A DNA stretch of 64,000 nt from Escherichia coli (GTDB taxonomy: Bacteria; Pseudomonadota; Gammaproteobacteria; Enterobacterales; Enterobacteriaceae), in assembly GCF_030384885.1 (NCBI RefSeq), contig NZ_CP128613.1, one strand, 5' to 3'. Positions 13,448-33,712 of the stretch are shown piece by piece. Within the stretch, counting starts at the first letter, position 1; each line of letters opens with the position of its first letter. The position numbers were made by a program, and so were the translations under genes. A model generated the notes under the pieces. It made no database searches. It saw only the letters and a list, made by a program, of their open reading frames with translations, and was not told the DNA's origin.

Positions 13448-16400
13448 ACATATTCACGCTTTCCCTCGGTCTGGCCGTCATTCCGATGGTTGAGGCAGCA
13501 CCAACCGCTCAGCAACAGTTGCTGGAGCAAGTTCGGTTAGGCGAAGCGACCCATCGTGAAGACCTGGTGCAACAGTCGTTGTATCGGCTGGAACTTATTG
13601 ATCCGAATAACCCGGACGTCGTTGCCGCCCGTTTCCGTTCTCTGTTACGTCAGGGCGATATTGATGGCGCGCAAAAACAGCTCGATCGGCTGTCGCAGTT
13701 AGCGCCGAGTTCAAATGCGTATAAATCGTCGCGGACCACAATGTTACTTTCTACGCCGGATGGTCGTCAGGCACTGCAACAGGCAAGATTGCAGGCGACT
13801 ACCGGTCATGCAGAAGAAGCTGTGGCGAGTTACAACAAGCTGTTCAACGGTGCGCCGCCAGAAGGTGATATTGCCGTCGAGTACTGGAGTACGGTGGCGA
13901 AAATTCCGGCTCGCCGTGGCGAAGCGATTAATCAGCTAAAACGCATTAATGCGGATACGCCGGGCAATACGGGCCTGCAAAACAATCTGGCGCTATTGCT
14001 GTTTAGTAGCGATCGGCGTGATGAAGGTTTTGCTGTACTGGAGCAGATGGCGAAATCGAACGCCGGGCGCGAGGGAGCCTCTAAAATCTGGTACGGGCAG
14101 ATTAAAGACATGCCTGTCAGCGATGCCAGCGTGCAGGCGCTGAAAAAATATCTCTCTATCTTTAGCGATGGCGACAGCGTAGCTGCTGCGCAATCGCAAC
14201 TGGCAGAACAGCAAAAACAGCTGGCCGACCCTGCTTTCCGCGCTCGTGCGCAAGGTTTAGCGGCAGTGGACTCTGGCATGGCGGGTAAAGCCATTCCCGA
14301 ACTACAACAGGCAGTGCGGGCGAACCCGAAAGACAGTGAGGCACTGGGGGCGCTGGGCCAGGCGTATTCTCAGAAAGGCGATCGCGCCAATGCGGTGGCG
14401 AATCTGGAAAAAGCCCTCGCACTGGACCCGCACAGCAGCAACAACGACAAATGGAACAGTCTGCTGAAAGTAAACCGCTACTGGCTGGCGATCCAGCAGG
14501 GTGATGCCGCGCTGAAAGCCAATAATCCTGACCGGGCAGAACGCCTGTTCCAGCAGGCGCGTAACGTTGATAATACTGACAGCTATGCAGTGTTGGGGCT
14601 GGGCGATGTGGCGATGGCGCGAAAAGATTATTCCGCCGCCGAACGCTATTACCAGCAGACCTTGCGTATGGACAGCGGCAACACTAACGCCGTGCGCGGG
14701 CTGGCGAATATTTACCGCCAGCAGTCGCCAGAAAAAGCAGAAGCGTTTATCGCCTCGCTCTCTGCCAGCCAGCGGCGCAGCATTGATGATATCGAACGTA
14801 GCCTGCAAAACGATCGTCTGGCACAGCAGGCAGAGGCACTGGAAAACCAGGGCAAATGGGCGCAGGCAGCAGCACTTCAGCGGCAACGACTGGCACTGGA
14901 CCCCGGCAGTGTATGGATTACTTACCGACTTTCGCAGGATCTCTGGCAGGCCGGACAACGCAGCCAGGCTGATACATTAATGCGCAATCTGGCACAGCAG
15001 AAGCCGAACGACCCGGAGCAGGTTTACGCTTACGGGCTGTACCTCTCAGGTCACGACCAGGACAGAGCGGCACTGGCTCATATCAACAGCCTGCCGCGCG
15101 CGCAGTGGAACAGCAATATTCAGGAGCTGGTTAATCGGCTGCAAAGCGACCAGGTGCTGGAAACCGCTAATCGCCTGCGAGAAAACGGTAAAGAGGCAGA
15201 AGCAGAAGCGATGCTGCGCCAGCAACCGCCTTCCTCGCGTATTGATCTGACGCTGGCTGACTGGGCGCAACAACGACGTGATTACGCTGCTGCCCGTGCT
15301 GCATATCAGAATGTCCTGACGCGGGAGCCAACTAACGCTGATGCCATTCTTGGCCTGACGGAAGTGGATATCGCTGCCGGTGACAAAGCGGCGGCACGTA
15401 GCCAACTGGCGAAACTGCCTGCCACCGATAACGCCTCCCTGAACACACAGCGGCGCGTGGCGCTGGCGCAGGCGCAGCTTGGCGATACCGCAGCGGCGCA
15501 GCAGACATTTAACAAGCTGATCCCGCAGGCAAAATCTCAGCCACCGTCGATGGAAAGCGCGATGGTACTGCGCGACGGTGCGAAGTTTGAAGCGCAGGCG
15601 GGCGATCCAAAGCAGGCGCTGGAAACCTACAAAGACGCGATGGTCGCATCCGGTGTGACCACGACGCGTCCGCAGGATAACGACACCTTTACCCGGCTGA
15701 CCCGTAACGACGAGAAAGATGACTGGCTGAAACGCGGCGTGCGCAGCGATGCAGCGGACCTCTATCGCCAGCAGGATCTTAACGTCACCCTCGAGCACGA
15801 TTACTGGGGGTCGAGCGGCACCGGTGGTTACTCCGATCTGAAAGCGCACACCACCATGTTGCAGGTGGACGCACCGTATTCTGACGGGCGGATGTTCTTT
15901 CGCAGTGATTTCGTCAATATGAACGTCGGCAGTTTCTCCACTAATGCCGATGGCAAATGGGATGACAACTGGGGCACCTGTACATTACAGGACTGTAGCG
16001 GCAACCGCAGCCAGTCGGATTCCGGTGCCAGCGTGGCGGTCGGCTGGCGAAATGACGTCTGGAGCTGGGATATCGGCACCACGCCGATGGGCTTCAACGT
16101 GGTGGATGTGGTCGGCGGCATCAGTTACAGTGATGATATCGGGCCGCTGGGTTACACCGTTAACGCCCATCGTCGGCCCATTTCCAGTTCTTTGCTGGCC
16201 TTTGGCGGGCAAAAAGACTCCCCGAGCAATACCGGGAAAAAATGGGGTGGCGTGCGTGCTGATGGCGTAGGACTAAGCCTGAGCTACGATAAAGGTGAAG
16301 CAAACGGCGTCTGGGCATCGCTTAGCGGCGACCAGTTAACCGGTAAAAATGTTGAAGATAACTGGCGTGTGCGCTGGATGACGGGCTATTACTATAAGGT

Positions 16401-16902
16401 CATCAACCAGAACAATCGCCGCGTGACAATCGGCCTGAACAACATGATCTGGCATTACGACAAAGACCTGAGTGGGTACTCACTCGGTCAGGGCGGTTAC
16501 TACAGCCCGCAGGAATACCTGTCGTTTGCCATTCCGGTGATGTGGCGTGAGCGGACAGAAAACTGGTCGTGGGAGCTGGGGGCGTCTGGTTCGTGGTCGC
16601 ATTCGCGCACCAAAACCATGCCGCGGTATCCGCTGATGAATCTGATCCCGACTGACTGGCAGGAAGAAGCTGCGCGGCAATCCAACGATGGCGGCAGCAG
16701 TCAGGGCTTTGGCTATACGGCGCGGGCATTACTTGAGCGTCGCGTCACATCCAACTGGTTTGTCGGTACGGCAATTGATATCCAGCAGGCGAAAGATTAC
16801 GCGCCCAGCCATTTCCTGCTCTACGTACGTTATTCCGCCGCCGGATGGCAGGGTGACATGGATTTACCGCCGCAGCCGCTGATACCTTACGCCGACTGGT
16901 AA
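13429..16902 (+). CDS. bcsC: Cellulose synthase outer-membrane/TPR subunit BcsC (1157 aa)
   Basis: ORF track; signal peptide, long TPR region, C-terminal beta-barrel; overlaps bcsZ end by 19 nt. Confidence 0.95.
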
Positions 16903-16983
16903 GTTTTCAGATAGCGCCTCTCTTAATGCCGCTGCGATCGGGTATACTCGGGCGGCAATCTGGGATTTCCGGGGGGAGACAAT

Positions 16984-18972
16984 TTGCGCGTAAGTCGCTC
17001 GTTAACAATCAAGCAGATGGCAATGGTGGCAGCCGTTGTCCTGGTGTTCGTTTTTATTTTTTGCACCGTTTTGCTGTTCCATCTGGTCCAGCAGAATCGC
17101 TATAACACGGCTACGCAACTGGAAAGCATTGCTCGCTCTGTCCGCGAACCCTTATCTTCTGCCATTTTGAAAGGCGATATTCCCGAAGCGGAAGCTATTC
17201 TTGCCAGCATTAAACCGGCAGGCGTGGTCAGCCGTGCCGATGTGGTGCTGCCTAACCAGTTCCAGGCGCTGCGTAAAAGTTTTATTCCAGAGCGTCCGGT
17301 GCCGGTAATGGTTACTCGCATGTTTGAGCTACCGGTGCAAATCTCGCTGGGCGTTTACTCGCTGGAACGTCCGGCAAACCCGCAGCCAATTGCCTATCTG
17401 GTGCTACAGGCGGATTCCTTCCGCATGTATAAGTTCGTGATGAGCACCCTCTCAACGTTAGTGACCATTTACTTACTTTTGTCGTTAATATTGACGGTGG
17501 CGATTAGCTGGTGCATTAACCGCCTGATTTTGCATCCGTTACGCAATATTGCTCGTGAACTTAACGCCATCCCAGCCCAGGAGCTTGTTGGTCACCAACT
17601 GGCATTACCACGTCTGCATCAGGACGATGAAATCGGTATGCTGGTGCGCAGTTACAACCTCAACCAGCAATTGCTGCAGCGCCATTATGAAGAACAGAAC
17701 GAAAATGCGATGCGCTTCCCGGTGTCGGATTTGCCGAACAAAGCCTTGCTGATGGAGATGCTGGAGCAGGTTGTCGCGCGTAAACAAACCACCGCGCTGA
17801 TGATTATCACCTGTGAAACCCTGCGTGATACTGCGGGCGTGCTGAAAGAGGCGCAACGAGAAATTCTGCTGCTGACGCTGGTGGAAAAACTCAAATCGGT
17901 ACTGTCGCCACGTATGATCCTCGCGCAAATTAGTGGTTATGACTTTGCTGTCATTGCCAACGGTGTACAGGAACCGTGGCATGCTATTACTTTAGGTCAG
18001 CAAGTGCTCACTATCATGAGCGAGCGCCTGCCGATTGAACGTATTCAACTTCGTCCGCACTGTAGCATTGGCGTGGCGATGTTCTACGGCGATCTCACCG
18101 CCGAACAGCTTTACAGTCGCGCTATTTCTGCGGCATTTACCGCTCGCCATAAAGGTAAGAATCAGATTCAGTTCTTTGATCCGCAGCAGATGGAAGCCGC
18201 CCAACAGCGGTTGACGGAAGAGAGCGATATCCTTAATGCACTGGAAAATCATCAGTTTGCGATTTGGTTACAGCCACAGGTCGAGATGACCAGCGGTAAA
18301 CTGGTCAGTGCGGAAGTGTTACTGCGTATCCAGCAACCGGATGGCAGTTGGGATCTGCCGGATGGCTTAATCGATCGCATTGAGTGCTGTGGGCTGATGG
18401 TTACCGTCGGTCACTGGGTGCTGGAAGAGTCCTGTCGACTGCTGGCTGCCTGGCAAGAGCGCGGCATTATGTTGCCCTTGTCGGTAAACCTCTCAGCGCT
18501 GCAACTGATGCACCCGAATATGGTAGCGGATATGCTGGAACTGTTAACCCGCTATCGCATTCAGCCGGGAACACTGATTCTGGAAGTGACAGAAAGCCGA
18601 CGTATTGACGACCCTCATGCAGCGGTGGCAATCCTCCGCCCGTTGCGTAATGCCGGCGTTCGGGTGGCGCTGGATGATTTCGGCATGGGCTACGCAGGGC
18701 TGCGTCAGCTGCAGCATATGAAATCGTTGCCAATCGACGTGTTAAAAATCGACAAAATGTTTGTTGAAGGCTTGCCGGAAGATAGCAGCATGATTGCTGC
18801 AATTATCATGTTGGCGCAAAGCCTGAACTTACAAATGATTGCCGAAGGCGTGGAGACTGAAGCACAACGCGACTGGCTGGCAAAAGCGGGCGTTGGTATT
18901 GCCCAGGGCTTCCTTTTTGCTCGCCCACTCCCTATTGAAATCTTCGAAGAGAGTTACCTGGAAGAAAAGTAG
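16984..18972 (+). CDS. pdeK: c-di-GMP phosphodiesterase PdeK/YhjK (HAMP - degenerate GGDEF - EAL), start probably TTG
   Basis: ORF track 662 aa beginning at TTG 16984 preceded by gggggga RBS; EAL motifs present (ELTE..., DDFGMGYAG); alternative ATG starts at 17017/17023. Confidence 0.8.
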
Positions 18973-19118
18973 CTACCCCAAACTGATTACAAAACTTTAA
19001 AAAGTGCTGGTTTGTGCGAGCCAGCTCAAACTTTTTAACCTTTTTGTTTCAATTATGATCCAGGTACATTTCTGTGATGTTGTCTGGGTGTTATTTTAAG
19101 GCCGCAGGTACCCCATAA

Positions 19119-20441
<1,323 letters not shown>

Positions 20442-20448
20442 TCTCACC

Positions 20449-20486
20449 ACTTATGCCCGCACTCCCTTCCCCGAGTGCGGGTGTTT
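20449..20486 (+). terminator. Putative intrinsic terminator after dctA
   Basis: Inverted repeat cccgcactc / gagtgcggg followed by gtgtttg. Confidence 0.45.
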
Positions 20487-20660
20487 GCGCATAATTGACC
20501 CCTGTGCCTGAACTTACCACCTGGGTGAGTTCAGGTTTATTTCACTTCTTCCGTGACATTTTCATGTTCTTGCGGTCTAACACGAAGTGTTTTTAATGTC
20601 ATTTAGACTGACCGACAACGGGCAGTTTTTTATTACCAGGATAGTTGATCAGGGGTTCAC

Positions 20661-22157
20661 ATGCAGGGCACAAAAATTCGACTTTTAGCGGGCGGTTTGC
20701 TGATGATGGCCACTGCTGGCTATGTGCAGGCAGATGCGCTCCAGCCTGATCCAGCATGGCAACAGGGGACGCTTTCCAACGGTTTACAGTGGCAAGTGCT
20801 GACCACGCCCCAGCGTCCCAGCGATCGCGTTGAAATTCGCCTGCTGGTTAATACCGGTTCGCTCGCCGAAAGTACACAACAGAGCGGTTACAGTCACGCC
20901 ATCCCTCGTATTGCGTTAACGCAAAGCGGTGGCCTTGAAGCAGCACAGGCGCGTTCATTGTGGCAGCAGGGGATCGACCCTAAACGCCCGATGCCGCCGG
21001 TAATTGTCTCTTATGACACCACGCTGTTTAATCTGAGTTTGCCCAATAACCGTAACGACTTGCTGAAAGAAGCGCTCTCTTATCTGGCAAATGCCACTGG
21101 CAAACTGACTATCACGCCAGAAACCATCAACCACGCGCTGCAAAGTCAGGACATGGTGGCAACCTGGCCTGCCGATACTAAAGAGGGCTGGTGGCGCTAT
21201 CGTCTGAAAGGATCAACCTTGTTAGGTCACGATCCTGCCGATCCGCTGAAACAACCCGTTGAAGCGGAAAAGATTAAAGATTTCTATCAGAAATGGTACA
21301 CCCCGGATGCAATGACGCTGCTGGTGGTGGGAAACGTGGATGCGCGCTCGGTTGTCGACCAAATCAACAAAACGTTTGGCGAACTGAAAGGCAAACGTGA
21401 AACACCGGCTCCGGTGCCGACGCTTTCTCCGCTGCGTCCTGAAGCGGTGAGTATTATGACCGATGCGGTACGTCAGGACCGGTTATCTATCATGTGGGAT
21501 ACGCCGTGGCAGCCTATTCGTGAATCAGCCGCACTGCTGCGCTACTGGCGTGCGGACCTGGCCCGTGAGGCGCTGTTCTGGCACGTTCAGCAAGCGTTAA
21601 GCACCAGTAACAGCAAAGACATCGGTCTTGGATTTGACTGCCGTGTGCTGTATCTGCGTGCGCAGTGTGCCATCAACATCGAATCACCAAACGACAAGCT
21701 GAACAGCAACCTTAATTTGGTAGCGCGTGAGCTGGCAAAGGTTCGCGATAAAGGTCTGCCGGAAGAAGAGTTCAATGCGTTAGTGGCGCAAAAGAAACTG
21801 GAGCTGCAGAAACTGTTTGCCGCCTATGCGCGAGCTGATACCGATATTTTGATGGGTCAGCGGATGCGTTCGTTGCAAAATCAGGTCGTTGATATCGCGC
21901 CGGAGCAATATCAGAAACTGCGCCAGGACTTCCTTAACAGCCTGACGGTGGAGATGTTAAATCAGGATCTGCGTCAGCAGTTGTCGAACGATATGGCGTT
22001 AATTCTTCTGCAGCCGAAAGGCGAGCCAGAATTTAACATGAAAGCGTTGCAGGCGGCCTGGGATCAAATCATGGCCCCATCTACTACTGCTGCCACAACC
22101 TCAGTTGCCACGGATGACGTACATCCTGAAGTGACGGATATTCCACCCGCACAGTAA
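20661..22157 (+). CDS. yhjJ: Periplasmic M16-family peptidase-like protein YhjJ (498 aa)
   Basis: ORF track; signal peptide; size and position match yhjJ. Confidence 0.85.
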   Translation: MQGTKIRLLAGGLLMMATAGYVQADALQPDPAWQQGTLSNGLQWQVLTTPQRPSDRVEIRLLVNTGSLAESTQQSGYSHAIPRIALTQSGGLEAAQARSLWQQGIDPKRPMPPVIVSYDTTLFNLSLPNNRNDLLKEALSYLANATGKLTITPETINHALQSQDMVATWPADTKEGWWRYRLKGSTLLGHDPADPLKQPVEAEKIKDFYQKWYTPDAMTLLVVGNVDARSVVDQINKTFGELKGKRETPAPVPTLSPLRPEAVSIMTDAVRQDRLSIMWDTPWQPIRESAALLRYWRADLAREALFWHVQQALSTSNSKDIGLGFDCRVLYLRAQCAINIESPNDKLNSNLNLVARELAKVRDKGLPEEEFNALVAQKKLELQKLFAAYARADTDILMGQRMRSLQNQVVDIAPEQYQKLRQDFLNSLTVEMLNQDLRQQLSNDMALILLQPKGEPEFNMKALQAAWDQIMAPSTTAATTSVATDDVHPEVTDIPPAQ

Positions 22158-22360
22158 TAAATCACCCGGCAGCGTTTCTTCTGCGCTGCCGGGATTAACG
22201 GTAATAAATTAGTTACCGTGATATAACCGCAGATATTTTTCCTGGCACGGCGGTAGCGCGCAGATAACCATTCATTATTAAAATAAACTTACCGTAGAGT
22301 GGGTTTAATTATTTATTAGCTGAATAAATTATACCGGTGCCTCCTGGAAGGAGTGAGTTT

Positions 22361-22786
22361 ATGCTTGTGTTAAAATCACAATCGATTGGATTCAGGATTT
22401 CCACAGCTTATTTATCTTTAACATATACAGAGTCTGATGGCGTCAAGATTAAAGTAGATGCTCTGGAGTTAATATCAACAGAGAGAGATTATGTTCAAAT
22501 TGAACTGGTCTTCACTACTGTTGCTGAAGTTAAGTGTGCTACCGTCAATTTTTATGAAGCCAACTATAACAATATTGTTATTAAGAAGGTTGATGGTGAA
22601 AATCTGGACTCCGGTATATATCAAGTAATGAATTCTGTACCGCTTGAAGAAAAAGAGAAATTATATGATCCTAAAAAACGGTTGAAGTTAAAACATTATA
22701 TTATAGCAGGTTATGATAGTTATGTTGAGATTTTAGCTACTGGTTTTAGCTGTATACGATGCCAGGCAATAGATGGTGTTAAATAA
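22361..22786 (+). CDS. Hypothetical protein (141 aa), AT-rich accessory ORF 1
   Basis: ATG at 22361 preceded by ggaaggagtg RBS (track ORF 22337..22786); low GC; no recognised family. Confidence 0.5.
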   Translation: MLVLKSQSIGFRISTAYLSLTYTESDGVKIKVDALELISTERDYVQIELVFTTVAEVKCATVNFYEANYNNIVIKKVDGENLDSGIYQVMNSVPLEEKEKLYDPKKRLKLKHYIIAGYDSYVEILATGFSCIRCQAIDGVK

Positions 22787-23040
22787 TGGCCTATCATATA
22801 GAAATATTGAAAATTGAAGAAACTGATAAAGTAGTAAAATATGAATTTGGACCTACATCTTCTGACTATTGTAGATCTGATTACGGCGAATTCGTGATAG
22901 ATAAAAGAACGGGTGAGATGACATTAGTCAGAATGGTTAAAAACGATTCAGCTAATAAATTTTATTTGCGAGCGAGTTTTAAGATTCTGACCTGTTGGCG
23001 AAAGGGCTATTTGCCAAAAAATGAGGAATGGGCTTCTTAA
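22786..23040 (+). CDS. Hypothetical protein (84 aa), AT-rich accessory ORF 2
   Basis: ATG overlaps stop of ORF 1 (TAATG), suggesting translational coupling. Confidence 0.45.
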   Translation: MAYHIEILKIEETDKVVKYEFGPTSSDYCRSDYGEFVIDKRTGEMTLVRMVKNDSANKFYLRASFKILTCWRKGYLPKNEEWAS

Positions 23041-23139
23041 TAAGTAACTTTGCAGAATAAGTGAATTTTCCCATTTTTTTGGGGGCAGTCGTTGATTCTT
23101 ACACAGTTTATGTTATGGGTGCCAAATTTAGGATAGGCT

Positions 23140-23619
23140 ATGGATTTTCACTTGGATATTTTGCTCCCTACACAATTCGCTCCAGAGGAACTAGATCTAC
23201 AAGAGGTTATGATTCACTGGGGTGGGGAAACCTTTCATCGCGACCCTCCGGTATACGCCTGGTGTAATCATCATCTTTTGCAGAGATGCAATCTACCGAT
23301 TACTTATGGCCCACCTTTAGATGAGCACATAGACTTTAATGAATATCATGTTTACAACTTCAATGGTTCTTTAGTCGATGACCTGGAAATGGCTGTGAAT
23401 AAAGGAAAGGATATTTCAACCAATCCTATAATTAAATTTATTAACAACCTGGTTAGCAAAAATTACGGGGGGTGGGTAATCTTGTCATTAGATGATGAAA
23501 AAATAGAAGTGATTAAAAATATAAGCTTCCAGTATTCTTTTCTATCATTATTAGTTGATGGACTAAAATGGGAAAGACCGCATGGGGTGGCAATATTATA
23601 TAATTCACACTTAATTTAA
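23140..23619 (+). CDS. Hypothetical protein (159 aa), AT-rich accessory ORF 3
   Basis: ORF track; low GC; no recognised family. Confidence 0.45.
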   Translation: MDFHLDILLPTQFAPEELDLQEVMIHWGGETFHRDPPVYAWCNHHLLQRCNLPITYGPPLDEHIDFNEYHVYNFNGSLVDDLEMAVNKGKDISTNPIIKFINNLVSKNYGGWVILSLDDEKIEVIKNISFQYSFLSLLVDGLKWERPHGVAILYNSHLI

Positions 23620-23640
23620 TTAATTAATGAATGGAAACAT

Positions 23641-23943
23641 ATGTATCGTGTAAAGGTTGTTTGGCTTACAGAAAATGAAGGTGGCAGAAGGAGCGCACCT
23701 CCTATCGGTAGATATTATCCCGTCTCCAGGTTTCCAGAGGAGAAAACTGACTGGCAAAATAATGCATGGAGTGTTGTTTTTGAATTGGAAAAACCTAATG
23801 TAACCGATGGACGTATCGTTTCAATGGGGTGCGTTCAGTTCCTTTTCGATACCGCCCCTGAACAATGGATGACTAAGTACGAGGCATTTGAGATCTACGA
23901 AGGACCAAGAAAAGTCGCAGATGTATTATTGATAGGGAATTAA
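23641..23943 (+). CDS. Hypothetical protein (100 aa), AT-rich accessory ORF 4
   Basis: ORF track; 21 nt after ORF 3; low GC. Confidence 0.45.
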   Translation: MYRVKVVWLTENEGGRRSAPPIGRYYPVSRFPEEKTDWQNNAWSVVFELEKPNVTDGRIVSMGCVQFLFDTAPEQWMTKYEAFEIYEGPRKVADVLLIGN

Positions 23944-24004
23944 TTTTATTTATGTCAGGCTATTTAATTATATTTGCGACCTCAACGCATTTTCAGGAGT
24001 ATAA

Positions 24005-24538
24005 ATGCGTAACAAAAAACGCATACTATTCTTGCTAACAGTCATTTTTTGCTTAACAGGTCTTTATTCCTGCAACAAAAATTTTCTCTTACTCTGGGAT
24101 GCCAATAATATGTATGTCAGCACAAGAAATAATATCGATAAAGACAAGGTAAAAATAGAATTCGGTATCAGCGTCAACACGATCAACCGAGAAACGGATG
24201 CCGAATTATTTGCTGACAGAGATAAGTATGCAGTGCTCTTCGATGGTAGCCTGAAAAATAAGATGATAAGCGAATACGGAGAAAATGATTTTTTAATTAC
24301 CTACGATAACCGCTGCTATTTATCATTTCGTCAATTTAAAACAAATCGTCGTCATCAACATGACTATTATTTTGACTTCTTTAACAAGGATGGGAATGTC
24401 TTCGTCACGGTCGAAATTAAAGGTGAGAACCCGCTTAAATTTACGCGTAGTTTTAATGATATGCGTCAGCAGTTTTCACCATTCCGTAAGGGTAGCCCTT
24501 CTCACTCCTGCAAGGTTATTTCTTCAGATCCTTCTTAA
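24005..24538 (+). CDS. Hypothetical exported protein, possible lipoprotein (177 aa), AT-rich accessory ORF 5
   Basis: N-terminal signal peptide MRNKKRILFLLTVIFCLTGLYSC with Cys after hydrophobic core; ggagt RBS upstream; 3' end overlaps convergent gene by 23 nt. Confidence 0.5.
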   Translation: MRNKKRILFLLTVIFCLTGLYSCNKNFLLLWDANNMYVSTRNNIDKDKVKIEFGISVNTINRETDAELFADRDKYAVLFDGSLKNKMISEYGENDFLITYDNRCYLSFRQFKTNRRHQHDYYFDFFNKDGNVFVTVEIKGENPLKFTRSFNDMRQQFSPFRKGSPSHSCKVISSDPS

Positions 24539-26510
24539 ACACTGGTTCTGGACAATCACGACCAAAATGCGCCGCCCAGTCAAAAGATTTACCGTTTTTC
24601 ACGTAGCGTTGATAAATTAATGCACCGGTTTCTGGATCAAGATATCTGATCCAACTTGCAGCATGGCATAACACGGCAGCCCAAGCCTGGGTTTTAGGGT
24701 GAAGTAAATCGGCTGATTGTCCGGCCCATTCCGCAGCCTGCCAGCGGTAATGCAAAAAATGCTCATCAACAGTGGGGATTGCGTGGCGGAAACGTTGTTT
24801 TTCTTTACGACTTATCCACTGATCGTTATTGCTGTATTCAAAGGGTTCTGAATACTGCCCGCTGGTAATGGCATAATCGGGATACATTTCATAAGCCGCC
24901 AATTCGATACCACTGAAACGCAAAAGCCGCGCAGCTTCGTATTGCGCCTGGGCGCGTTGCTTATCAGGGATGTTTTTATTTTTTGCTATCGCCATTAAAT
25001 CAGCCAGTTTTTGTGCGGCCTGGCGATAATTGGGAATATCAAACCAATTGATGGCCTGCTGGTACTGGCCATGACGAATTAATCGTCTACCCAATAACGC
25101 CCGTAATTTAACATCCGTTGGAATGATATCTGGCGAAAGATAATAACCGTCATTGTTATTATTTAAATCTACAGGTTTTAAAGGGTGCTGAGGTACCGGT
25201 ACGTTTTTTTCAACAAACGCCTGTAACTCCGGTAAGGTCAAAACGTTTTCTGCAACCCAGGCTAAATCGGCCCAATAGAGATCTTTGGCCTGGTAAAACA
25301 ATGCGGTGGCCTGAAGATAATCATCGCGTTTTAATGCCAAAATCGCCTGCTCACTGGCAATACGGCAAGATGGGATAATAACTTTATCTCCATGATAATA
25401 AGGACTTTCCGGGTCCATACTTCCCCACACTTCATCGGTCGGGAACATCGGGGCTGCGCGAGCATAGTGACGCGTTGCCAGTGGAATATCTCCGGCTCGT
25501 AATGCCATTTTTGCTTTTAACCATTCGCTTAATCCACTTTCTGGCGCATCCTGCAACAGCGTTTGTGCTAACGAATAATTTCCTGCCCGATACGCCAGTG
25601 CTGCCAGGCGATCGCTATAACTAAATCCTTTAACTCTGTGTTGACTTAGCAACTTAATTAAACGGTCGCGATGCGTTGGACAGGTATAATCTACAAGGTC
25701 CTTAGTACAGGCTTCGCTAACATACCCCCAGTCATGACGAATAAAGAGCTCTGCGATTACCAGTTGCTGAACCAGAGAATCATTAATAACCGACTCCAGC
25801 AGTGGTAAATTTTTCTCCCTGGTTATATACAGCGAAATCATCCGTAGCGACGCTTTCCCGGAGGGCGAACCCTGGGCCGCTTGCCGGGCATACATTTTTA
25901 CTGCCGCAGCGACATCACCTTTTTTCAGATAATAATGCCCAATCTGACCGAGACTGGCGAGAGAGAGCAATTCAGGATCGGCTGCGCCATTACGCACTTC
26001 TTCAATGATTTGCTGATAACGCTGTATGGCCTGCTCAGCAAGTTCCTGATTAAAGCCACCTTTATTGATTATAAGATCGAGATCGTCGTCAGAGGCATCA
26101 AATCCCCCCCTTGCCAGACTATATAGCGCAGCCAGCCGCCATTCTCCTTGCTCTGTTTTCGGCAAGGCTAATAATTGCTGAAAGTATGGGCTATCGTATT
26201 TTCCCTGATGGAAATCCTTAGCTCCTGAATAATAAAGTTCCAGTGCCCGATTTTGCACAGGAGGTTCAGCATCTGTATCTGTCTGCGTTGCCTCTTCAGG
26301 CGTATTTTCTTGCCATACTGGTAAACCAGGATCGCGTTTAACCAACTGTTGTACTTCAAAGACAAAACTGCCATTTGGCATTTCCAGCAGTGCGCTATTG
26401 CGGTCAGTTAACAGATGATTGGGAATAAATGGTCCACAGGCATTAACGTTGGCGCTAATTAGCGAGAGAAATACAACAACGGAAAGCCGCGATATTTTAG
26501 GGGATAACAT
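24516..26510 (-). CDS. Secreted helical-repeat (TPR/Sel1-like) protein of unknown function (~664 aa)
   Basis: Track ORF 24516..26735 trimmed to ATG at 26510 (MLSPKISRLSVVVFLSLISANVNA signal peptide, ggagag RBS, 8 nt after stop of upstream gene); Sel1/TPR-like segments (e.g. VKMYARQAAQG) seen by eye. Confidence 0.6.
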   Translation of the reverse strand: MLSPKISRLSVVVFLSLISANVNACGPFIPNHLLTDRNSALLEMPNGSFVFEVQQLVKRDPGLPVWQENTPEEATQTDTDAEPPVQNRALELYYSGAKDFHQGKYDSPYFQQLLALPKTEQGEWRLAALYSLARGGFDASDDDLDLIINKGGFNQELAEQAIQRYQQIIEEVRNGAADPELLSLASLGQIGHYYLKKGDVAAAVKMYARQAAQGSPSGKASLRMISLYITREKNLPLLESVINDSLVQQLVIAELFIRHDWGYVSEACTKDLVDYTCPTHRDRLIKLLSQHRVKGFSYSDRLAALAYRAGNYSLAQTLLQDAPESGLSEWLKAKMALRAGDIPLATRHYARAAPMFPTDEVWGSMDPESPYYHGDKVIIPSCRIASEQAILALKRDDYLQATALFYQAKDLYWADLAWVAENVLTLPELQAFVEKNVPVPQHPLKPVDLNNNNDGYYLSPDIIPTDVKLRALLGRRLIRHGQYQQAINWFDIPNYRQAAQKLADLMAIAKNKNIPDKQRAQAQYEAARLLRFSGIELAAYEMYPDYAITSGQYSEPFEYSNNDQWISRKEKQRFRHAIPTVDEHFLHYRWQAAEWAGQSADLLHPKTQAWAAVLCHAASWIRYLDPETGALIYQRYVKNGKSFDWAAHFGRDCPEPVFKKDLKK

Positions 26511-27705
26511 TGAACTCTCCTTGTAAATTTGGGGTGCATCGCGCCCATCCCAGCGCACTGCTTTCACCAGCACGCAACTGCCTGGTACTGATGCGAATAA
26601 AACGTAACGAGGATGCGTTGGTTTGTGCCTGATAATGGCCTGCGCCATCAGCATATGTGCATTGAGCAGCAGGCAGCTCGATCTGTTGTGGCAATGGCGC
26701 GTCAATATCACCATTGTTTTTAATGGCCAAATCAATAAGTTGCTTGTCAGCCTGTGGCGAAATTATCAAAGACCAGCGCGGCGTCAAAGGTTTATGGTGA
26801 ATAACGGCATCTAAAGTAGACAGGGACCAGGCGCGGCGATCATTTGCCAGCGGGAGTCGGAACCAGATAAATCCCTGTAACCCTGAGGGCGGTTTTTGTT
26901 CCAGCTGTTGGGTAAAATCAGCCAACGTTTGTGGCGCCACACTCAGCTCCCGCAACTCTTGTGCAATATACAGTGGGGCTTCGCTTTCAATACGGTTATC
27001 GCGCGTCAGCGCAGAACCGTAAGCCGGCAGAGCGATGTAAAAAGGATGGGGAGAAATACGTGCATATTGCGTGCTCCAGCGCTTAGCCAGTTTACTGTCG
27101 AATAATCCCTGTTGCGGCGATAACACCGTATGCACCTGCAAAACAGAAATATCGGCGTCAGCCAGCAGCGCAGGCAGATGTGGTGAATTCAGCCAGTCAG
27201 GTAATGCAGTAATACTGAGTTTTAATTCTGCAGGAAGATTCTGGCGCAATGTCCTTAGCAACTGTTGGTATTCCACCAGTTTTGCCGTTGGCGCATCGAA
27301 ATCAATTTCAATGCCAGCCAGCTTAATACCCGCCTCTTTCCACTCATTCATTGTTCGTACAATGTTCTGCACAACATTTTGTTGATTAATATGAGAGAGC
27401 TTACCGTCCAGTCGCGCAACCAGCCAGACGGGGCGATCATCTTGTTTTATAAATGTTTTATTAACGGCGGTGTAGCGTATACCTTCCTGAGGATGAACTT
27501 GTAGCTCCAGAATGCGTAGCGTTGAGAACAGATTACGGCTCTGTTTTAGTGCGTGCTCATGTTGCGCGGTCCACAAACGCTGCCAGATATAGACTTGTTG
27601 ATCGAGGGGGCGTGTTTTTTGCGGCATAAGCCGGGTCAGCAGCCCATATCCAGAGCCGATAAAAACGATGAGTGAAATGGCAAAAATCCATTTGCGAGAG
27701 GGCAT
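26497..27705 (-). CDS. Membrane-anchored periplasmic protein of unknown function (402 aa)
   Basis: ORF track; single N-terminal TM helix (WIFAISLIVFIGSGYGLL) then soluble domain; first gene of two-gene operon. Confidence 0.6.
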   Translation of the reverse strand: MPSRKWIFAISLIVFIGSGYGLLTRLMPQKTRPLDQQVYIWQRLWTAQHEHALKQSRNLFSTLRILELQVHPQEGIRYTAVNKTFIKQDDRPVWLVARLDGKLSHINQQNVVQNIVRTMNEWKEAGIKLAGIEIDFDAPTAKLVEYQQLLRTLRQNLPAELKLSITALPDWLNSPHLPALLADADISVLQVHTVLSPQQGLFDSKLAKRWSTQYARISPHPFYIALPAYGSALTRDNRIESEAPLYIAQELRELSVAPQTLADFTQQLEQKPPSGLQGFIWFRLPLANDRRAWSLSTLDAVIHHKPLTPRWSLIISPQADKQLIDLAIKNNGDIDAPLPQQIELPAAQCTYADGAGHYQAQTNASSLRFIRISTRQLRAGESSALGWARCTPNLQGEFNVIP

Positions 27706-27759
27706 TTGAACCCGGAATCCATGTGGTCAATAACAGAAAGTATACTGCGGAACTATTTA

Positions 27760-27789
27760 GCGGAGAAATTATTCCATTAATTTCTCCGC
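27760..27789. terminator. Perfect hairpin between kdgK 3' end and accessory operon start
   Basis: gcggagaaatta-ttcc-ttaatttctccgc inverted repeat. Confidence 0.4.
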
Positions 27790-27806
27790 TATGATTGATG
27801 TGTTAT

Positions 27807-28736
27807 TTACTGAGGCATGGCTTCGCGAGGAATAATCGCGCCGCGATACTGAATAACGGTACTTGCGGTCAGGTGCCCGCGTTTCGCCGCATTTTCCGCA
27901 CTGGCGCCCGTCAAACGTACCGCCAGATAACCGGCACTGAAAGAGTCGCCAGCTGCAGTGGTATCGATCACTTTTTCTTTTGGCAGTTTCACCGCCGGAA
28001 CATCCACTAACCCCTCGCCAGCAATGGACACCAGGCAAGAATCCGCCCCGCGTTTCACCACCACTTCTTTCACGCCCGCGTTATGGGTGCGCGCAATGAC
28101 GTCTTCCACCGGTTGTTGACCCCACAGCGCGTCTTCGTCGTCCAGCGTCAGGAAGGCGATATCCGTGCATTCCAGCATTTGCTGGTACATCTGCTGTGTC
28201 TCTTCTTTGCTGGCCCACAAGCGCGGACGGTAGTTATTGTCGAAAATCACTTTTCCACCGTTAGTGCGGCATTCGCGCAGCAGGGAAAGCAGCTTTTCGC
28301 GGCTGGTCGGGCTTAAGATTGCCAGGCTAATCCCGCTCAGGTAGAGATAATCAAAATTCGCCAGCTCTGCACAAATCGCTGCGGATTGCTCACTCTCCAG
28401 CCAAAATTTGGCGGCGGCTTCGTTACGCCAGTAGTAGAACGTACGTTCGCCAGTGCTGTCGGTTTCAATGTAGTAAAGACCCGGCAGACGGTTTTCCATC
28501 CGCTGGGTCAGGGAAGTATCAACGTTCTCGCCGTGCCAGGCGTCCAGCATCTGCTGACTAAAACTGTCCGTTCCCAGCGCCGTCACGTAATGAACGGTTA
28601 ATGCCGCAGGATCGACCTGACGGGCGATATAGACGGAAGTGTTCAGGGTATCGCCGCCGAAACCGCGCTTAACGTCCGCGCCTTTCTCGGAAAGCTCAAT
28701 CATGCATTCGCCAATCACGGCAATCTTTTTGGACAT
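27807..28736 (-). CDS. kdgK: 2-dehydro-3-deoxygluconokinase KdgK (309 aa)
   Basis: ORF track; PfkB-family sugar kinase sequence; size matches. Confidence 0.9.
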   Translation of the reverse strand: MSKKIAVIGECMIELSEKGADVKRGFGGDTLNTSVYIARQVDPAALTVHYVTALGTDSFSQQMLDAWHGENVDTSLTQRMENRLPGLYYIETDSTGERTFYYWRNEAAAKFWLESEQSAAICAELANFDYLYLSGISLAILSPTSREKLLSLLRECRTNGGKVIFDNNYRPRLWASKEETQQMYQQMLECTDIAFLTLDDEDALWGQQPVEDVIARTHNAGVKEVVVKRGADSCLVSIAGEGLVDVPAVKLPKEKVIDTTAAGDSFSAGYLAVRLTGASAENAAKRGHLTASTVIQYRGAIIPREAMPQ

Positions 28737-28966
28737 AGTCGTGAACCTGATCTGTAAAAATTAGCGTTAGTTTGCGCTGTGGTGGTTTGCTGGTCAACCA
28801 TATTAAAACAGTGTTCCATTATTTTTTTGAGCCAGAACGTATTCCTGAAAGATTCCGTAGTGGAGTGGGGAAATTTAACCCGGTCAGGCGGTAAAGTTCT
28901 GCTCTTGCGCGCCGATAATCTTTGTCAAGTCCGGGCAGCATCACTTTTAAACACAGGACATCTTTG

Positions 28967-29734
28967 ATGATAAGGCAGGTTATCCAGCGAATAAGCAACC
29001 CTGAAGCAAGCATCGAGAGCTTGCAGGAACGGCGTTTTTGGTTGCAGTGTGAGCGTGCTTACACCTGGCAGCCGATCTATCAAACCTGCGGACGGTTAAT
29101 GGCCGTGGAGCTATTAACGGTGGTCACGCATCCCTCGAACCCTTTACAACGTCTGCCGCCGGATCGCTATTTTACTGAAATCACCGTCAGCCATCGGATG
29201 GAGGTTGTGAAAGAGCAGATTGATTTGCTGGCGCAAAATGCCGACTTCTTTGTCGAGCACGGCCTGCTGGCATCGGTCAATATTGATGGTCCTACGCTCA
29301 TCGCCCTGCGTCAGCAACCAAAAATCCTGCGCCAGATTGAGCATCTTCCCTGGCTGCGTTTCGAACTGGTAGAACACATCCGCCTGCCAAAAGACTCAAC
29401 CTTTGCCTCGATGTGTGAATTTGGTCCGCTGTGGCTGGATGATTTCGGCACTGGGATGGCAAATTTCTCTGCGCTAAGTGAAGTACGTTACGACTACATC
29501 AAAATCGCCCGTGAGCTGTTTGTGATGCTGCGTCAGTCGCCGGAAGGACGCACGCTCTTTTCTCAGCTTTTACATCTAATGAATCGCTATTGTCGCGGGG
29601 TGATTGTCGAAGGTGTGGAAACGCAGGAAGAGTGGCGCGATGTACAAAATTCGCCTGCATTTGCCGCACAAGGCTGGTTTCTTTCACGCCCGGCACCGAT
29701 AGAAACGCTGAATTCGGCAGTTCTGGCGCTATAA
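28967..29734 (+). CDS. pdeH: c-di-GMP phosphodiesterase PdeH/YhjH (EAL only, 255 aa)
   Basis: ATG at 28967 (MIRQVIQRISNPEA...) inside track ORF 28922..29734; EAL domain motifs. Confidence 0.9.
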   Translation: MIRQVIQRISNPEASIESLQERRFWLQCERAYTWQPIYQTCGRLMAVELLTVVTHPSNPLQRLPPDRYFTEITVSHRMEVVKEQIDLLAQNADFFVEHGLLASVNIDGPTLIALRQQPKILRQIEHLPWLRFELVEHIRLPKDSTFASMCEFGPLWLDDFGTGMANFSALSEVRYDYIKIARELFVMLRQSPEGRTLFSQLLHLMNRYCRGVIVEGVETQEEWRDVQNSPAFAAQGWFLSRPAPIETLNSAVLAL

Positions 29735-29804
29735 GCTGCCTCATTTTCTGCCTGGCTGGACTATCTTTAGGACTGGCACAGGAAGAAATATGAGGAAGCG
29801 AATG

Positions 29805-31865: not shown

Positions 31866-31872
31866 TGGAAAC

Positions 31873-31970
31873 TGCCGGATGCGGCGTGAACGCCTTATCC
31901 GGCCTACAAATCCTTGCGAATTCAATATATTTTATGGAAATTCAGGCCTGATAAGCGTAGCGCATCAGGC
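31873..31970. repeat. REP/BIME palindromic element
   Basis: gccggatgcggcgtgaacgccttatccggcctac and inverted partner aggcctgataagcgtagcgcatcaggc. Confidence 0.75.
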
Positions 31971-31982
31971 TTTTCACTCTTA

Positions 31983-33305
31983 TTACAACGACTGATGTCG
32001 CGTTTCATGGGTCAGCAGCAGGGCGATTAACGTCAAGCCAGCCATCGCCGCCAGATATAACCCCACCGCACCTAACCCGTAGTTAGTCTGCAACCAGGCT
32101 GCGATATATGGCGCAACGGAAGCCCCAAGAATCGACGATACGTTGTAAGAGAACGATGCTCCGGTGTAACGCACTTCTGTCGGGAACAGCTCTGGTAACA
32201 GCGCGCCCATCGGCCCGAAGGTCAGTCCCATCAGACTTAACCCCAGCAGCAGGAAGGCAAAAACCAGAATCGGGTTGCCAGAACCGAGCAGCGGGTTAAA
32301 GGCGAACAGCGCGAACAGGATGATCAGCGTGGTGATGATTACCATGCTTTTACGGCGACCAAAGGCATCAGCCAGTAATCCGGCGACTGGCACCATCACG
32401 CCAAAACCAATCACTGCCATCATCAGCATCCACAACACTTCGTTACGCGGCAGGCCAAGCCCAACTGGCGCGGCGGCGGTACTAAAGGTCATAGAGTAGA
32501 CCGTCATGATGTAAAACAGCGTATAGGTTGCCAGCATAATGAACGTACCCAGTACGGTTACGCGAACATGTTTGGTCAGCAGCGTACCCAGCGGGATCTT
32601 CACCTGTTTTTTCGCTTTAGCGACTTTCTCAAACACCGGCGACTCATGCAGCGATACGCGAACATACAGGCCGATAATGACCAGCACCGCCGAGAAGATA
32701 AATGGCACCCGCCAGCCCCAGCTCATAAACTGCTCGTCGGTCAGTAGCCAGGAAAGCAGTAAGAAAGTGCCGTTGGCAAAGAAGAAGCCAATCGGTGCGC
32801 CCAGCTGCGGGAAGGAGCCGTACAATGCACGTTTGCGCGGTGGTGCGTTCTCGGTTGCCAGCAGCGCCGCTCCGCCCCATTCGCCGCCTAAGCCCAGACC
32901 CTGACCAAATCGAGCCAGTGCCAGCAGCAGCGGGGCGAAAATACCAATCGTGGCATAGCCCGGCAGCAGACCAATCACCACGGTCGAAATCCCCATCGTT
33001 AGCAACGAGGCGACCAGCGTCGCTTTACGCCCAACGCGATCGCCAAAATGACCAAAGACGGCAGAGCCAATAGGGCGCGCGACGAAGGCGATGGCGAAGG
33101 TGGCAAGCGACTGTAGCGTTGCTGCCGTAGGATCACCCTGTGGGAAGAAGATATGCGGGAACACAATAACGGCTGCCGTTGCGTAAATATAGAAGTCGAA
33201 GAACTCAATGGCTGTACCGATGAGTGAGGCAACCAGAACTTTATTACGTGAGTTTACCGGCGTAAATTCCTGGTTATTTTCGAGTGTTGTGGCTGTTGCT
33301 TGCAT
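31983..33305 (-). CDS. yhjE: MFS transporter YhjE (440 aa)
   Basis: ORF track; 12-TM MFS-like sequence. Confidence 0.9.
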   Translation of the reverse strand: MQATATTLENNQEFTPVNSRNKVLVASLIGTAIEFFDFYIYATAAVIVFPHIFFPQGDPTAATLQSLATFAIAFVARPIGSAVFGHFGDRVGRKATLVASLLTMGISTVVIGLLPGYATIGIFAPLLLALARFGQGLGLGGEWGGAALLATENAPPRKRALYGSFPQLGAPIGFFFANGTFLLLSWLLTDEQFMSWGWRVPFIFSAVLVIIGLYVRVSLHESPVFEKVAKAKKQVKIPLGTLLTKHVRVTVLGTFIMLATYTLFYIMTVYSMTFSTAAAPVGLGLPRNEVLWMLMMAVIGFGVMVPVAGLLADAFGRRKSMVIITTLIILFALFAFNPLLGSGNPILVFAFLLLGLSLMGLTFGPMGALLPELFPTEVRYTGASFSYNVSSILGASVAPYIAAWLQTNYGLGAVGLYLAAMAGLTLIALLLTHETRHQSL

Positions 33306-33614
33306 AATCTTTTCTTATTTTTTGGCTAACGAATAGCCATATTACGCACAGCAAAAGTGATATTTCAATGTGTAACAAATCGCGGAGTTGGTCGAAAATC
33401 AGCCAAAAAGGGAATAATGTTTAAGCTGGTGATTTTTCTTCTATGAAATGCTTCACATAATTTCATAAATGGTGGATAAAACTGGTTTTAGGTTAAATAA
33501 AAGTTACCAACTGGATTTATATGCTGGAGTAATGAGTTGGAATGAAATTGTTTGCTCCTAAGAGATGACAGAAAAGGCTCTGGGGAAGAGTTTAAGTGGT
33601 TATGTGCGCATGAT

Positions 33615-33708: not shown

Positions 33709-33712
33709 TATT

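What the first reader, a model, noticed from the sequence alone, without database searches (positions are those of the whole stretch)
22163..22336. Palindromes at the left edge of the accessory insertion
Right after the yhjJ stop there is a GC hairpin (cccggcagcg...cgctgccggg) and then a short palindrome (cggtaataaattagttaccg), followed by an abrupt fall in GC. A perfect hairpin also sits at the right edge (27760-27789). These may mark the original convergent terminators and help define the insertion boundaries.
Basis: seen in the sequence. Interest (0 to 1): 0.25.

Follow-up and report, generated by a model that had tools for sequence, protein, structure and literature searches.

The report
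Conserved hairpins bordering a mosaic islet
The palindromes are real, and two of them are conserved stem-loops sitting just after the yhjJ and kdgK stop codons in every strain that carries this small gene islet. They are absent from insertion-free strains, so they are ordinary gene-end hairpins that belong to the islet-bearing version of the locus, not relics of the original spacer.

Summary
All four observations hold: the GC hairpin at 22165-22193, the short palindrome at 22198-22219, the GC drop, and a perfect 14-bp hairpin at 27758-27791.

Of 5426 complete E. coli genomes, 5221 carry a 95-bp yhjJ-kdgK spacer with two different hairpins and no detectable similarity to the islet edges. Another 200 carry the islet-type left edge. 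Homology with the empty allele stops at the yhjJ stop codon (22158) and resumes at the kdgK stop codon (27807-27809). The hairpins therefore lie inside the variable segment and are not the terminators seen in insertion-free strains.

The GC hairpin and the right hairpin are kept in every structural variant found, in E. coli, E. fergusonii and two unnamed Escherichia lineages. Both show compensatory stem changes (2 and 4 pairs). The short palindrome decays.

The islet is a nested mosaic:
- The GC drop marks an AT-rich leader (from 22265) and a four-gene low-GC cassette (from 22317), not the islet edge.
- The right block (~24800-27831), including the right hairpin, is 95-99% identical to E. fergusonii.
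- The crossover of that block lies inside kdgK, at 27831-27840.

Best reading: these are transcript-end stem-loops (terminator, stabiliser or insulator) of an alternative spacer allele that is swapped by homologous recombination in the flanking genes. This is ordinary biology and of low interest.

The parts
22155..22160 (+). Tandem stop codons of yhjJ (TAA TAA). Homology with the insertion-free allele ends at 22158 (shared 'CAGTAAT'), which is the left junction.
22165..22193 (+). Hairpin 1: a perfect 10-bp GC stem with a 9-nt loop. It is present in all islet-bearing alleles and absent from empty alleles. The tail is U-rich only on the - strand (TGATTTAT).
22198..22219 (+). Hairpin 2: a 7-bp palindrome ACGGTAA-N8-TTACCGT. 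It is not structurally conserved. It has mismatches in E. fergusonii and L155 and is cut by a deletion in L154.
22158..22316 (+). Left non-coding edge shared by islet-bearing alleles. It extends to 22267 in SMS-3-5 and to 22316 in Escherichia sp. E1V33. The AT-rich part starts at 22265.
22317..23975 (+). Nested low-GC cassette of four small ORFs (g1 22379-22786, g2 22786-23040, g3 23140-23619, g4 23641-23943). It is absent from SMS-3-5 and E1V33 type islets, and its content varies between strains. The right limit is approximate.
24005..24538 (+). g5, a predicted lipoprotein gene. Its 3' end overlaps g6 by 23 bp, which is the true convergence point of the locus.
24516..26510 (-). g6, a 664-aa protein with weak, below-threshold TPR similarity. 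It is the conserved partner of the DUF3142 gene across Gammaproteobacteria.
26497..27705 (-). g7, a DUF3142-domain protein. The window carries the E. fergusonii-type allele, which is only 66% amino-acid identical to the SMS-3-5 type.
24800..27831 (.). Block that is 95-99% identical to E. fergusonii, while the flanking core genes are only about 75-85% identical. The left crossover is at about 24740-24830. The right crossover is at 27831-27840, inside kdgK.
27758..27791 (-). Right hairpin: a perfect 14-bp stem with a 6-nt loop, starting 15 nt downstream of the kdgK stop codon in kdgK sense. A structurally equivalent but sequence-divergent hairpin occupies the same place in all other islet types.
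27807..27809 (-). kdgK stop codon. Homology with the insertion-free allele resumes here, but the last codon differs between alleles.

Best explanation
The yhjJ-kdgK gap exists in Escherichia as two unrelated alleles. One is a short 95-bp spacer with its own two hairpins. The other is an islet-bearing allele.

In the islet-bearing allele each core gene is followed, 7-15 nt after its stop codon, by one strong stem-loop: hairpin 1 after yhjJ and the right hairpin after kdgK. Islet genes co-oriented with that core gene follow (g1-g5 after yhjJ, g7-g6 after kdgK).

I infer that these two stem-loops act at the RNA level as 3'-end elements of the yhjJ and kdgK transcripts. They would terminate or pause transcription, protect the 3' end, and insulate the core genes from the islet genes. 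Selection keeps them for that reason while everything between them is reshuffled.

They are not insertion scars. The whole inter-gene segment, hairpins included, is exchanged by homologous recombination with crossovers in the flanking genes or inside the islet.

The short second palindrome is probably not functional. The GC drop reflects an AT-rich leader plus a nested four-gene low-GC cassette.

Shown: presence, coordinates, conservation, compensatory changes, junction positions, mosaic structure. Inferred: RNA-level function and the recombination mechanism.
For: Junctions. The empty and islet alleles are mutually exclusive: 5221 and 200 of 5426 genomes. They share no spacer sequence.

Retention. 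Hairpin 1 and the right hairpin are the only non-coding elements kept in every variant I found:
- the 7-gene type (window; L160, L161, L163, L165)
- the 042 type, which lacks g6-g7; its deletion stops 4-7 nt from the right hairpin
- the SMS-3-5/E1V33 type, which lacks g1-g4
- L154, which lacks g5 and has hairpin 2 cut
- E. fergusonii

Hairpin 1. All of its stem cells are paired (69 of 69) across 7 alleles. E. fergusonii carries two compensatory pairs (C-G to U-A, G-C to A-U). L155 has a substitution plus 1-nt deletion that still gives a 10-bp stem. Energies stay at -23.5 to -24.3 kcal/mol. Among four close alleles, 0 of 11 variable sites fall in the 34 stem positions (P = 0.012).

Right hairpin. 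112 of 112 cells are paired in kdgK sense, with 4 compensatory pairs between two alleles whose flanks are only about 60-65% identical. There are 20 G.U cells that would be A.C mismatches on the other strand. The SMS-type hairpin folds at -21.9 kcal/mol in kdgK sense and -15.5 on the opposite strand.

Recombination. The window's 24800-27831 block is 95-99% identical to E. fergusonii, while kdgK beyond 27840 is E. coli-like. There is no integrase, tRNA, flanking direct repeat or terminal inverted repeat.

Outgroups. Salmonella, Citrobacter, Pseudocitrobacter and E. albertii have short spacers, each with different hairpins. Hairpins at this convergent junction are the rule, and their sequences turn over.
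Against: Neither hairpin has a U-tract on the sense strand. The tail of hairpin 1 is ATTAACGG and that of the right hairpin is AATAGTTC. The terminator scan called neither.

For hairpin 1 the U-rich tail lies on the antisense strand. Its sense of action is therefore unresolved.

Compensatory changes in hairpin 1 come from a single lineage, E. fergusonii. The shuffle control for the left structure is only moderate (26-32 of 500).

There are no expression or 3'-end data.

Perfect Watson-Crick palindromes in the window allele are equally compatible with a DNA-level role.
Confidence: 0.6

Rival explanations
1. First reader's reading. The hairpins are the original convergent terminators of yhjJ and kdgK, inherited from the pre-insertion spacer. 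The islet dropped in between them, so they mark the insertion boundaries.
For: They abut the stop codons and are retained in all islet variants. Other genera also have hairpins in this spacer. An ancestral or donor lineage whose short spacer consisted of hairpin 1 plus the right hairpin cannot be excluded.
Against: The insertion-free spacer of E. coli (5221 genomes) and E. albertii has different hairpins and no similarity to the islet edges.

No genome was found with hairpin 1 and the right hairpin but no islet. All 5 island-like metagenome hits carry islet genes.

The window's right hairpin sits on an E. fergusonii-type block whose breakpoint is inside kdgK.
Confidence: 0.2
2. The palindromes are recombination or attachment sites (attC-like, dif/Xer-like, or an IS target hairpin) through which the islet or its cassettes were inserted site-specifically.
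For: The palindromes lie at segment edges. The small-gene array is cassette-like and variable. A 9-bp TTTAATTAT repeat occurs on both sides of the g1-g4 cassette.
Against: No recombinase, transposase or tRNA was found. The left and right hairpins share no sequence, and there are no flanking direct or inverted repeats. No palindromes lie between the small ORFs. Structural breakpoints fall elsewhere: 22316/22317, about 24740-24830, and 27831-27840. The 9-mer is AT-rich, and 31 bp are missing next to it, so it is not a clean target duplication.
Confidence: 0.04
3. They are members of a dispersed extragenic palindrome family (REP/BIME-type) that happens to sit here.
For: REP/BIME-like and boxC-like palindromes (my recognition by eye, not tested) fill the same spacer in Salmonella, Citrobacter and Pseudocitrobacter.
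Against: The element is single-copy. There is 1 place per genome for the 191-bp left edge in 200 genomes and 1 match in the window even with 3 mismatches allowed. There is no GTAG/CTAC flank, and the palindrome is perfect rather than bulged. The same 10-bp stem in soil metagenomes has unrelated loops and flanks (119 of 124 hits).
Confidence: 0.03
4. They are DNA-level protein-binding palindromes, for example an upstream activator site for a sigma-54-like promoter (TGGCACGGCGGTAGCG, 22243-22258) that drives g1-g5.
For: The GG/GC spacing is correct, the motif is on the + strand, it lies about 120 nt upstream of g1, and it is downstream of both palindromes.
Against: The motif is not above chance: 7 matches against 13.6 expected at 2 mismatches. 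The GG is lost in E. fergusonii. Hairpin 2 decays. G.U pairing in the right hairpin argues for RNA. No activator gene lies in the islet.
Confidence: 0.05

Closest known systems
Intrinsic (Rho-independent) and bidirectional terminators between convergent genes
   Same: A GC-rich stem-loop a few nucleotides after the stop codon. The stem is conserved with compensatory changes. One hairpin follows each of two converging core genes. Hairpin 1 has an A-rich 5' flank, which gives a U-rich tail on the opposite strand, as in bidirectional terminators.
   Different: There is no U-tract on the sense strand of either hairpin. The loop of hairpin 1 is 9 nt. In this allele the genes downstream are co-directional islet genes rather than the converging partner. 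Activity is untested.
REP/BIME extragenic palindromes (3'-end mRNA stabilisers)
   Same: An intergenic hairpin at a gene's 3' end. Palindromes that I judged REP/BIME-like by eye occupy the equivalent spacer in Salmonella and Citrobacter.
   Different: These are single-copy, perfect palindromes with no GTAG/CTAC, and they are not repeated elsewhere in the genome.
Core-genome hotspots or islets with alternative gene content, exchanged through flanking homology (a concept from E. coli comparative genomics; cited from my own knowledge)
   Same: The flanking core genes are the same while the contents differ (at least 6 structural variants). There are no mobility genes. Crossovers lie in flanking or internal homologous sequence. 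There is an inter-species mosaic with E. fergusonii.
   Different: The islet is very small (2-6 kb). Both alleles are old enough to be shared across Escherichia species. The outermost hairpins are conserved as part of the allele.
Integron attC sites and cassette arrays
   Same: Short variable ORFs in a row, next to imperfect palindromes.
   Different: There is no integrase, no attC-like element between ORFs, and no GTTRRRY core.

Membership tests
Intrinsic terminator | Stable GC-rich stem-loop just downstream of a stop codon | tested here: met
   Hairpin 1 folds at -24.2 kcal/mol and starts 7 nt after the first TAA. The right hairpin folds at -19.7 kcal/mol and starts 15 nt after the kdgK stop.
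Intrinsic terminator | U-rich tract immediately 3' of the stem on the sense strand | tested here: not met
   The hairpin 1 tail on the + strand is ATTAACGG (2 of 8 T). The right hairpin tail in kdgK sense is AATAGTTC (3 of 8). The scan called neither. Only the - strand tail of hairpin 1 (TGATTTAT, 5 of 8) qualifies.
Intrinsic terminator | Transcripts end at the element | not testable with these tools
   Needs Term-seq or 3' RACE.
Conserved structured RNA element | Base pairs maintained through compensatory substitutions in relatives | tested here: met
   Hairpin 1: 2 compensatory pairs and 100% of cells paired. Right hairpin: 4 compensatory pairs, 112 of 112 cells paired, 0 of 500 shuffles reach the covariation score. 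Hairpin 2: no compensatory pairs and 5 unpaired cells, so not met. There are few independent lineages.
REP/BIME | Many dispersed copies per genome | tested here: not met
   1 place per genome. 1 match in the window at up to 3 mismatches.
REP/BIME | Imperfect palindrome with a conserved GTAG/CTAC end | tested here: not met
   Perfect palindrome with flanks TAAATCA / ATTAACGG.
Site-specific island or integron cassette boundary | Recombinase gene and/or tRNA at the edge | tested here: not met
   Pfam and NCBIfam give only DUF3142 and weak TPR hits. No tRNA in 15000-35000.
Site-specific island or integron cassette boundary | Direct repeats or a common core at both ends | tested here: not met
   No edge-to-edge direct or inverted repeat. 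The left and right hairpins are unrelated.
Recombination-exchanged core-genome islet | Alternative contents between the same core genes in related genomes | tested here: met
   Empty, 042, SMS-3-5, window, L074, L154, L156 and E. fergusonii states.
Recombination-exchanged core-genome islet | Breakpoints of sequence ancestry inside flanking or internal homologous sequence | tested here: met
   The E. fergusonii-like block ends at 27831-27840 inside kdgK and at about 24740-24830 inside g6.
Sigma-54 promoter | -24 GG / -12 GC match stronger than chance | tested here: not met
   7 matches against 13.6 expected at 2 mismatches.

The most novel reading that the evidence does not exclude
The two outer stem-loops are selected insulators of a long-lived 'slot' between yhjJ and kdgK. 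The slot is maintained as a trans-species polymorphism (empty versus filled) in Escherichia. Foreign genes are plugged in co-oriented with the core genes and expressed by regulated read-through of the hairpins. The variable small-ORF array next to the lipoprotein / TPR-like / DUF3142 trio would then be an uncharacterised polymorphic module, for example an immunity-like or defence-like one.
Probability: 0.1. Interest if true: 0.4.

Novelty: new member of a known kind. Interest (0 to 1): 0.17.

Why it matters
It matters mainly for annotation. It fixes the true boundaries and the layered history of a small uncharacterised islet found in about 4% of complete E. coli genomes and in E. fergusonii.

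It also shows that hairpins next to an insertion need not be relics of the empty site, and that a GC step can mark a nested cassette rather than the island edge.

The conserved stem-loops are candidates for gene-end or insulator elements, and this could be tested easily. The variable small-ORF array and the widely conserved DUF3142/g6 gene pair are uncharacterised (only DUF3142 matches any domain family) and might repay separate study. Nothing here challenges current understanding.

Tried and rejected
- **Metagenome scan with the stem pattern and a free loop.** The pattern was too generic. 119 of 124 hits were unrelated GC-rich palindromes, and only 5 were the yhjJ-linked element. The 4 viral-contig hits appear to be of the same unrelated kind.
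- **An apparently near-isogenic 'empty' genome (L162, CP078573.1).** The spacer is a run of 116 N, which is an assembly gap and not an empty site.
- **Rfam on 21900-28000 at E <= 1.** Nothing relevant came up.
- **Promoter and terminator consensus scan.** No call at either edge.
- **Residual homology between the empty spacer and the islet edges or the whole islet.** None above shuffles.
- **A hairpin upstream of DUF3142 genes in Pseudocitrobacter, Serratia, Pseudomonas and Moraxellaceae.** It is not conserved there, so the right hairpin goes with kdgK and not with the DUF3142 module.
- **'The islet is ancestral and the empty site is a deletion'.** I judge this unlikely. Outgroups are empty. 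Islet genes are more similar between species (93-100%) than the flanking core genes are (75-87%).
- **Sigma-54 motif.** Not above chance.
- **Pfam, NCBIfam and PADLOC on the small ORFs.** No hits.
- **EF-Tu domain III resemblance of g4.** Only a 17-aa BLASTP match, E = 0.017.
- **Literature searches for DUF3142 and for yhjJ+kdgK.** Nothing on this locus.

Full report
**Source and gene content.** The window is E. coli 2013C-4282 (NZ_CP027579, 100% identity). yhjJ (20661-22157, +) and kdgK (27807-28736, -) converge on a 5.6-kb segment. That segment holds:
- five small + strand ORFs: g1-g4, and g5, which is a predicted lipoprotein
- two - strand ORFs: g6, a 664-aa protein with weak TPR similarity, and g7, a DUF3142 protein

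**Observation.**
- Hairpin 1 is a perfect 10-bp GC stem at 22165-22193 (-24.2 kcal/mol, z = -6.8).
- The short palindrome is a 7-bp stem at 22198-22219 (-9.4 kcal/mol, z = -3.1).
- The right hairpin is a perfect 14-bp stem at 27758-27791 (z about -6.3 to -6.6).
- GC falls from about 0.52 to 0.31-0.36.
- Perfect hairpins with stems of at least 10 bp are rare in this window: 8 observed against 0.45 expected. Two of them flank the islet.
- The 7-bp palindrome is not remarkable on its own (49 such hairpins against about 28 expected).

**The proposed check: alignment to an insertion-free junction.**
- 5221 of 5426 complete E. coli genomes carry a 95-bp yhjJ-kdgK spacer (examples L003, K-12 L020, L158).
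- 200 genomes carry the islet-type left edge, one copy each.
- These two sets add up to 5421, against 5422 genomes that matched the locus.
- The 95-bp spacer has its own two hairpins: GCCTGATGGT...ACCATCAGGT and GCTGGATAGAG...CTTTATCCAGC.
- It shows no similarity above shuffles to the left edge, the right edge or the whole islet.
- Homology ends after 'CAGTAAT' (22158) and resumes at the kdgK stop codon. Even the last kdgK codon differs between alleles.
- So the palindromes lie on the variable side of both junctions. The event is a replacement of the spacer, not an insertion between retained terminators.

**Outgroups.** Salmonella (53-bp spacer), Citrobacter (92 bp), Pseudocitrobacter (about 118 bp) and E. 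albertii (104 bp, homologous to the E. coli spacer) are all empty. Each genus has different hairpins there. By eye, these include REP/BIME-like and boxC-like ones. The empty state is therefore ancestral in the family. Hairpins at this convergent junction are the rule, but their sequences turn over.

**Islet variants.** The islet exists in many forms, always between yhjJ and kdgK:

| Form | Content | Evidence |
|---|---|---|
| 042 type (about 170 genomes) | g1-g5 only | |
| SMS-3-5 type (about 29 genomes), Escherichia sp. E1V33, L155 | g5-g6-g7 | |
| Window type | all seven genes; 1 complete genome plus drafts and a metagenome (L160, L161, L163, L165) at 99.7-99.97% identity | |
| L074 | g3 and g4 replaced by other small ORFs | |
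| L156, L157 | other small-ORF arrays, with 63%-identical g6 alleles | |
| L154 | g5 deleted | |
| E. fergusonii | 870 bp of AT-rich gene-less DNA, then g6-g7 | |

The g7-g6 pair alone also occurs at other loci in Pseudocitrobacter, Serratia, Pseudomonas and Moraxellaceae.

**Layered structure of the window's islet.**
1. The left non-coding edge (22158-22316) carries both palindromes. It is shared with 042, with SMS-3-5 (to 22267) and with E1V33 (to 22316).
2. The low-GC g1-g4 cassette begins at 22316/22317 relative to E1V33 and ends near 23975-23995. The GC drop starts at 22265, in an AT-rich leader that E1V33 also has. It therefore marks neither the islet edge nor exactly the cassette edge.
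3. From about 24800 to 27831 the window is 95-99% identical to E. fergusonii. The adjacent kdgK and pdeH are only about 60-85% identical to E. fergusonii and 93-99% identical to SMS-3-5.
4. The right crossover lies between 27831 and 27840, which is 22-33 bp inside kdgK.
5. So the right hairpin of the window belongs to an E. fergusonii-type block. Among complete E. coli genomes, it is found only in the source strain.

**Are the hairpins functional?**

Hairpin 1 is present in all seven distinct left-edge alleles.
- All of its stem cells are paired (69 of 69).
- E. fergusonii has two double (compensatory) changes.
- L155 has a substitution plus 1-nt deletion that re-forms a 10-bp stem.
- Energies stay at -23.5 to -24.3 kcal/mol.
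- Among the four close alleles, all 11 variable sites of the 107-nt edge avoid the 34 stem positions (P = 0.012).

Hairpin 2 decays. It has mismatches in E. fergusonii and L155 (-4.0 and -5.9 kcal/mol), and a deletion in L154 removes its 3' arm.

The right hairpin occurs as two very different sequences at the same position: TAGCGGAGAAATTA/TAATTTCTCCGCTA and ACGGAGAACG(GG)/(TT)CGTTCTCCGT.
- In kdgK sense, 112 of 112 cells pair, with 4 compensatory pairs.
- There are 20 G.U cells that would be A.C on the other strand.
- 0 of 500 shuffles reach the covariation score.
- The SMS-type hairpin is also more stable in kdgK sense (-21.9 against -15.5 kcal/mol).
- In the 042 type, the deletion of g6-g7 runs from the g6 stop codon to within 4-7 nt of this hairpin and spares it.
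- It is not found upstream of DUF3142 genes in other genera, so it goes with kdgK and not with g7.

**Mechanism.** In the islet allele each core gene is followed by co-oriented islet genes. The real convergence point is the 23-bp overlap of g5 and g6, which has no hairpin. The most economical reading has three parts:
- Hairpin 1 and the right hairpin are the 3'-end stem-loops of the yhjJ and kdgK transcripts. They would act in termination or pausing, in protection from 3' exonucleases, and in insulation from the islet genes.
- They are maintained by selection.
- The whole segment moves between genomes, and between species, by homologous recombination in the flanks.

Caveats:
- Neither hairpin has a sense-strand U-tract, and the terminator scan called neither.
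- Hairpin 1 has its U-rich tail on the antisense strand, because of the tandem stop codons.
- No transcript data were available.

**Alternatives I considered.**
- Site-specific att or attC sites: no recombinase, no tRNA, no edge repeats.
- REP-type repeats: the element is single-copy.
- Protein-binding palindromes upstream of a sigma-54-like motif at 22243-22258: the motif is not above chance.
- Chance: excluded for the two strong hairpins.
- Rfam has nothing here.
- Literature searches found nothing on this locus.

**Verdict.**
- The hairpins are real, and two of them are probably functional gene-end elements.
- They are not the original terminators of the insertion-free allele and do not mark the junctions.
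- The junctions lie at the stop codons. For the latest exchange, the right junction lies inside kdgK.
- This is an ordinary kind of feature, new only as an instance, and of low interest.

Noticed in passing
window 22243-22258 (+): TGGCACGGCGGTAGCG resembles a sigma-54 -24/-12 promoter. The GG..GC spacing is correct, and it lies about 120 nt upstream of g1 and downstream of both palindromes. It is not above chance (7 matches against 13.6 expected at 2 mismatches), and the GG is lost in E. fergusonii.
   Followed up: partly
window 24800-27831; L153 8650-11690 (approx.): The g6 (most of it), g7 and right non-coding block is 95-99% identical to E. fergusonii, while flanking core genes are about 75-85% identical. 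This indicates a recent inter-species exchange, with crossovers inside g6 and inside the last 22-33 bp of kdgK. The window's KdgK C-terminus (…AMPQ) is the E. fergusonii type.
   Followed up: yes
window 22379-23943; L074 2771-3583; L156 7667-11044; L157 7366-8651: The small-ORF array between hairpin 1 and the lipoprotein gene is variable. g3 and g4 are replaced by 98-aa and 163-aa ORFs in L074. L156 and L157 carry other sets (163, 208, 113, 144, 103 aa). None of the window or L074 ORFs hits Pfam, NCBIfam or PADLOC. The function is unknown, and the layout resembles a polymorphic cassette array.
   Followed up: partly
window 23641-23943 (g4): The N-terminus 'YRVKVVWLTENEGGRRS' and the C-terminal end weakly recall EF-Tu domain III. 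BLASTP against E. coli EF-Tu domain III gives E = 0.017 over 17 aa only, and Pfam gives no hit.
   Followed up: partly
L162 8499-8614 (CP078573.1): A 'complete' genome whose flanks are 99.99% identical to the window has exactly 116 N between the yhjJ stop and kdgK. It looks like a reference-guided assembly that lost the islet. It could be miscounted as an empty site.
   Followed up: yes
window 24516-24538: g5 (+) and g6 (-) overlap by 23 bp at their 3' ends. The real convergence point of the locus has no intergenic hairpin at all.
   Followed up: no
window 27706-27757; L005 7352-7400: Between the right hairpin and the g7 start, a short block (AATAGTT.CG…GTATACT) is conserved between two otherwise about 60-65% identical alleles. 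TATACT could be a -10 box for g7-g6.
   Followed up: no
L004 9340-9400 (E. coli 042): In the 042-type islet the g6-g7 deletion fuses g5 to the right non-coding region. The g5 ORF is extended to 194 aa, runs through the right hairpin and overlaps the kdgK 3' end.
   Followed up: partly
window 26497-27705 (g7): A solved structure of a DUF3142 protein exists (PDB 8y6t/9vtv; phmmer E = 1.2e-6 over residues 112-182), but it has no functional name. Some sources label g6 homologues 'cellulose synthase operon protein C'-like. The bcs operon lies just upstream of dctA/yhjJ in this window.
   Followed up: no
window 50071-50095, 50469-50501, 53517-53545, 59912-59938, 60142-60174, 60601-60631: These are the six other perfect hairpins with stems of at least 10 bp in the window. 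The pair at 59912 and 60142 share the core AAAAAACCGAC…GTCGGTTTTTT and look like classical bidirectional terminators.
   Followed up: no
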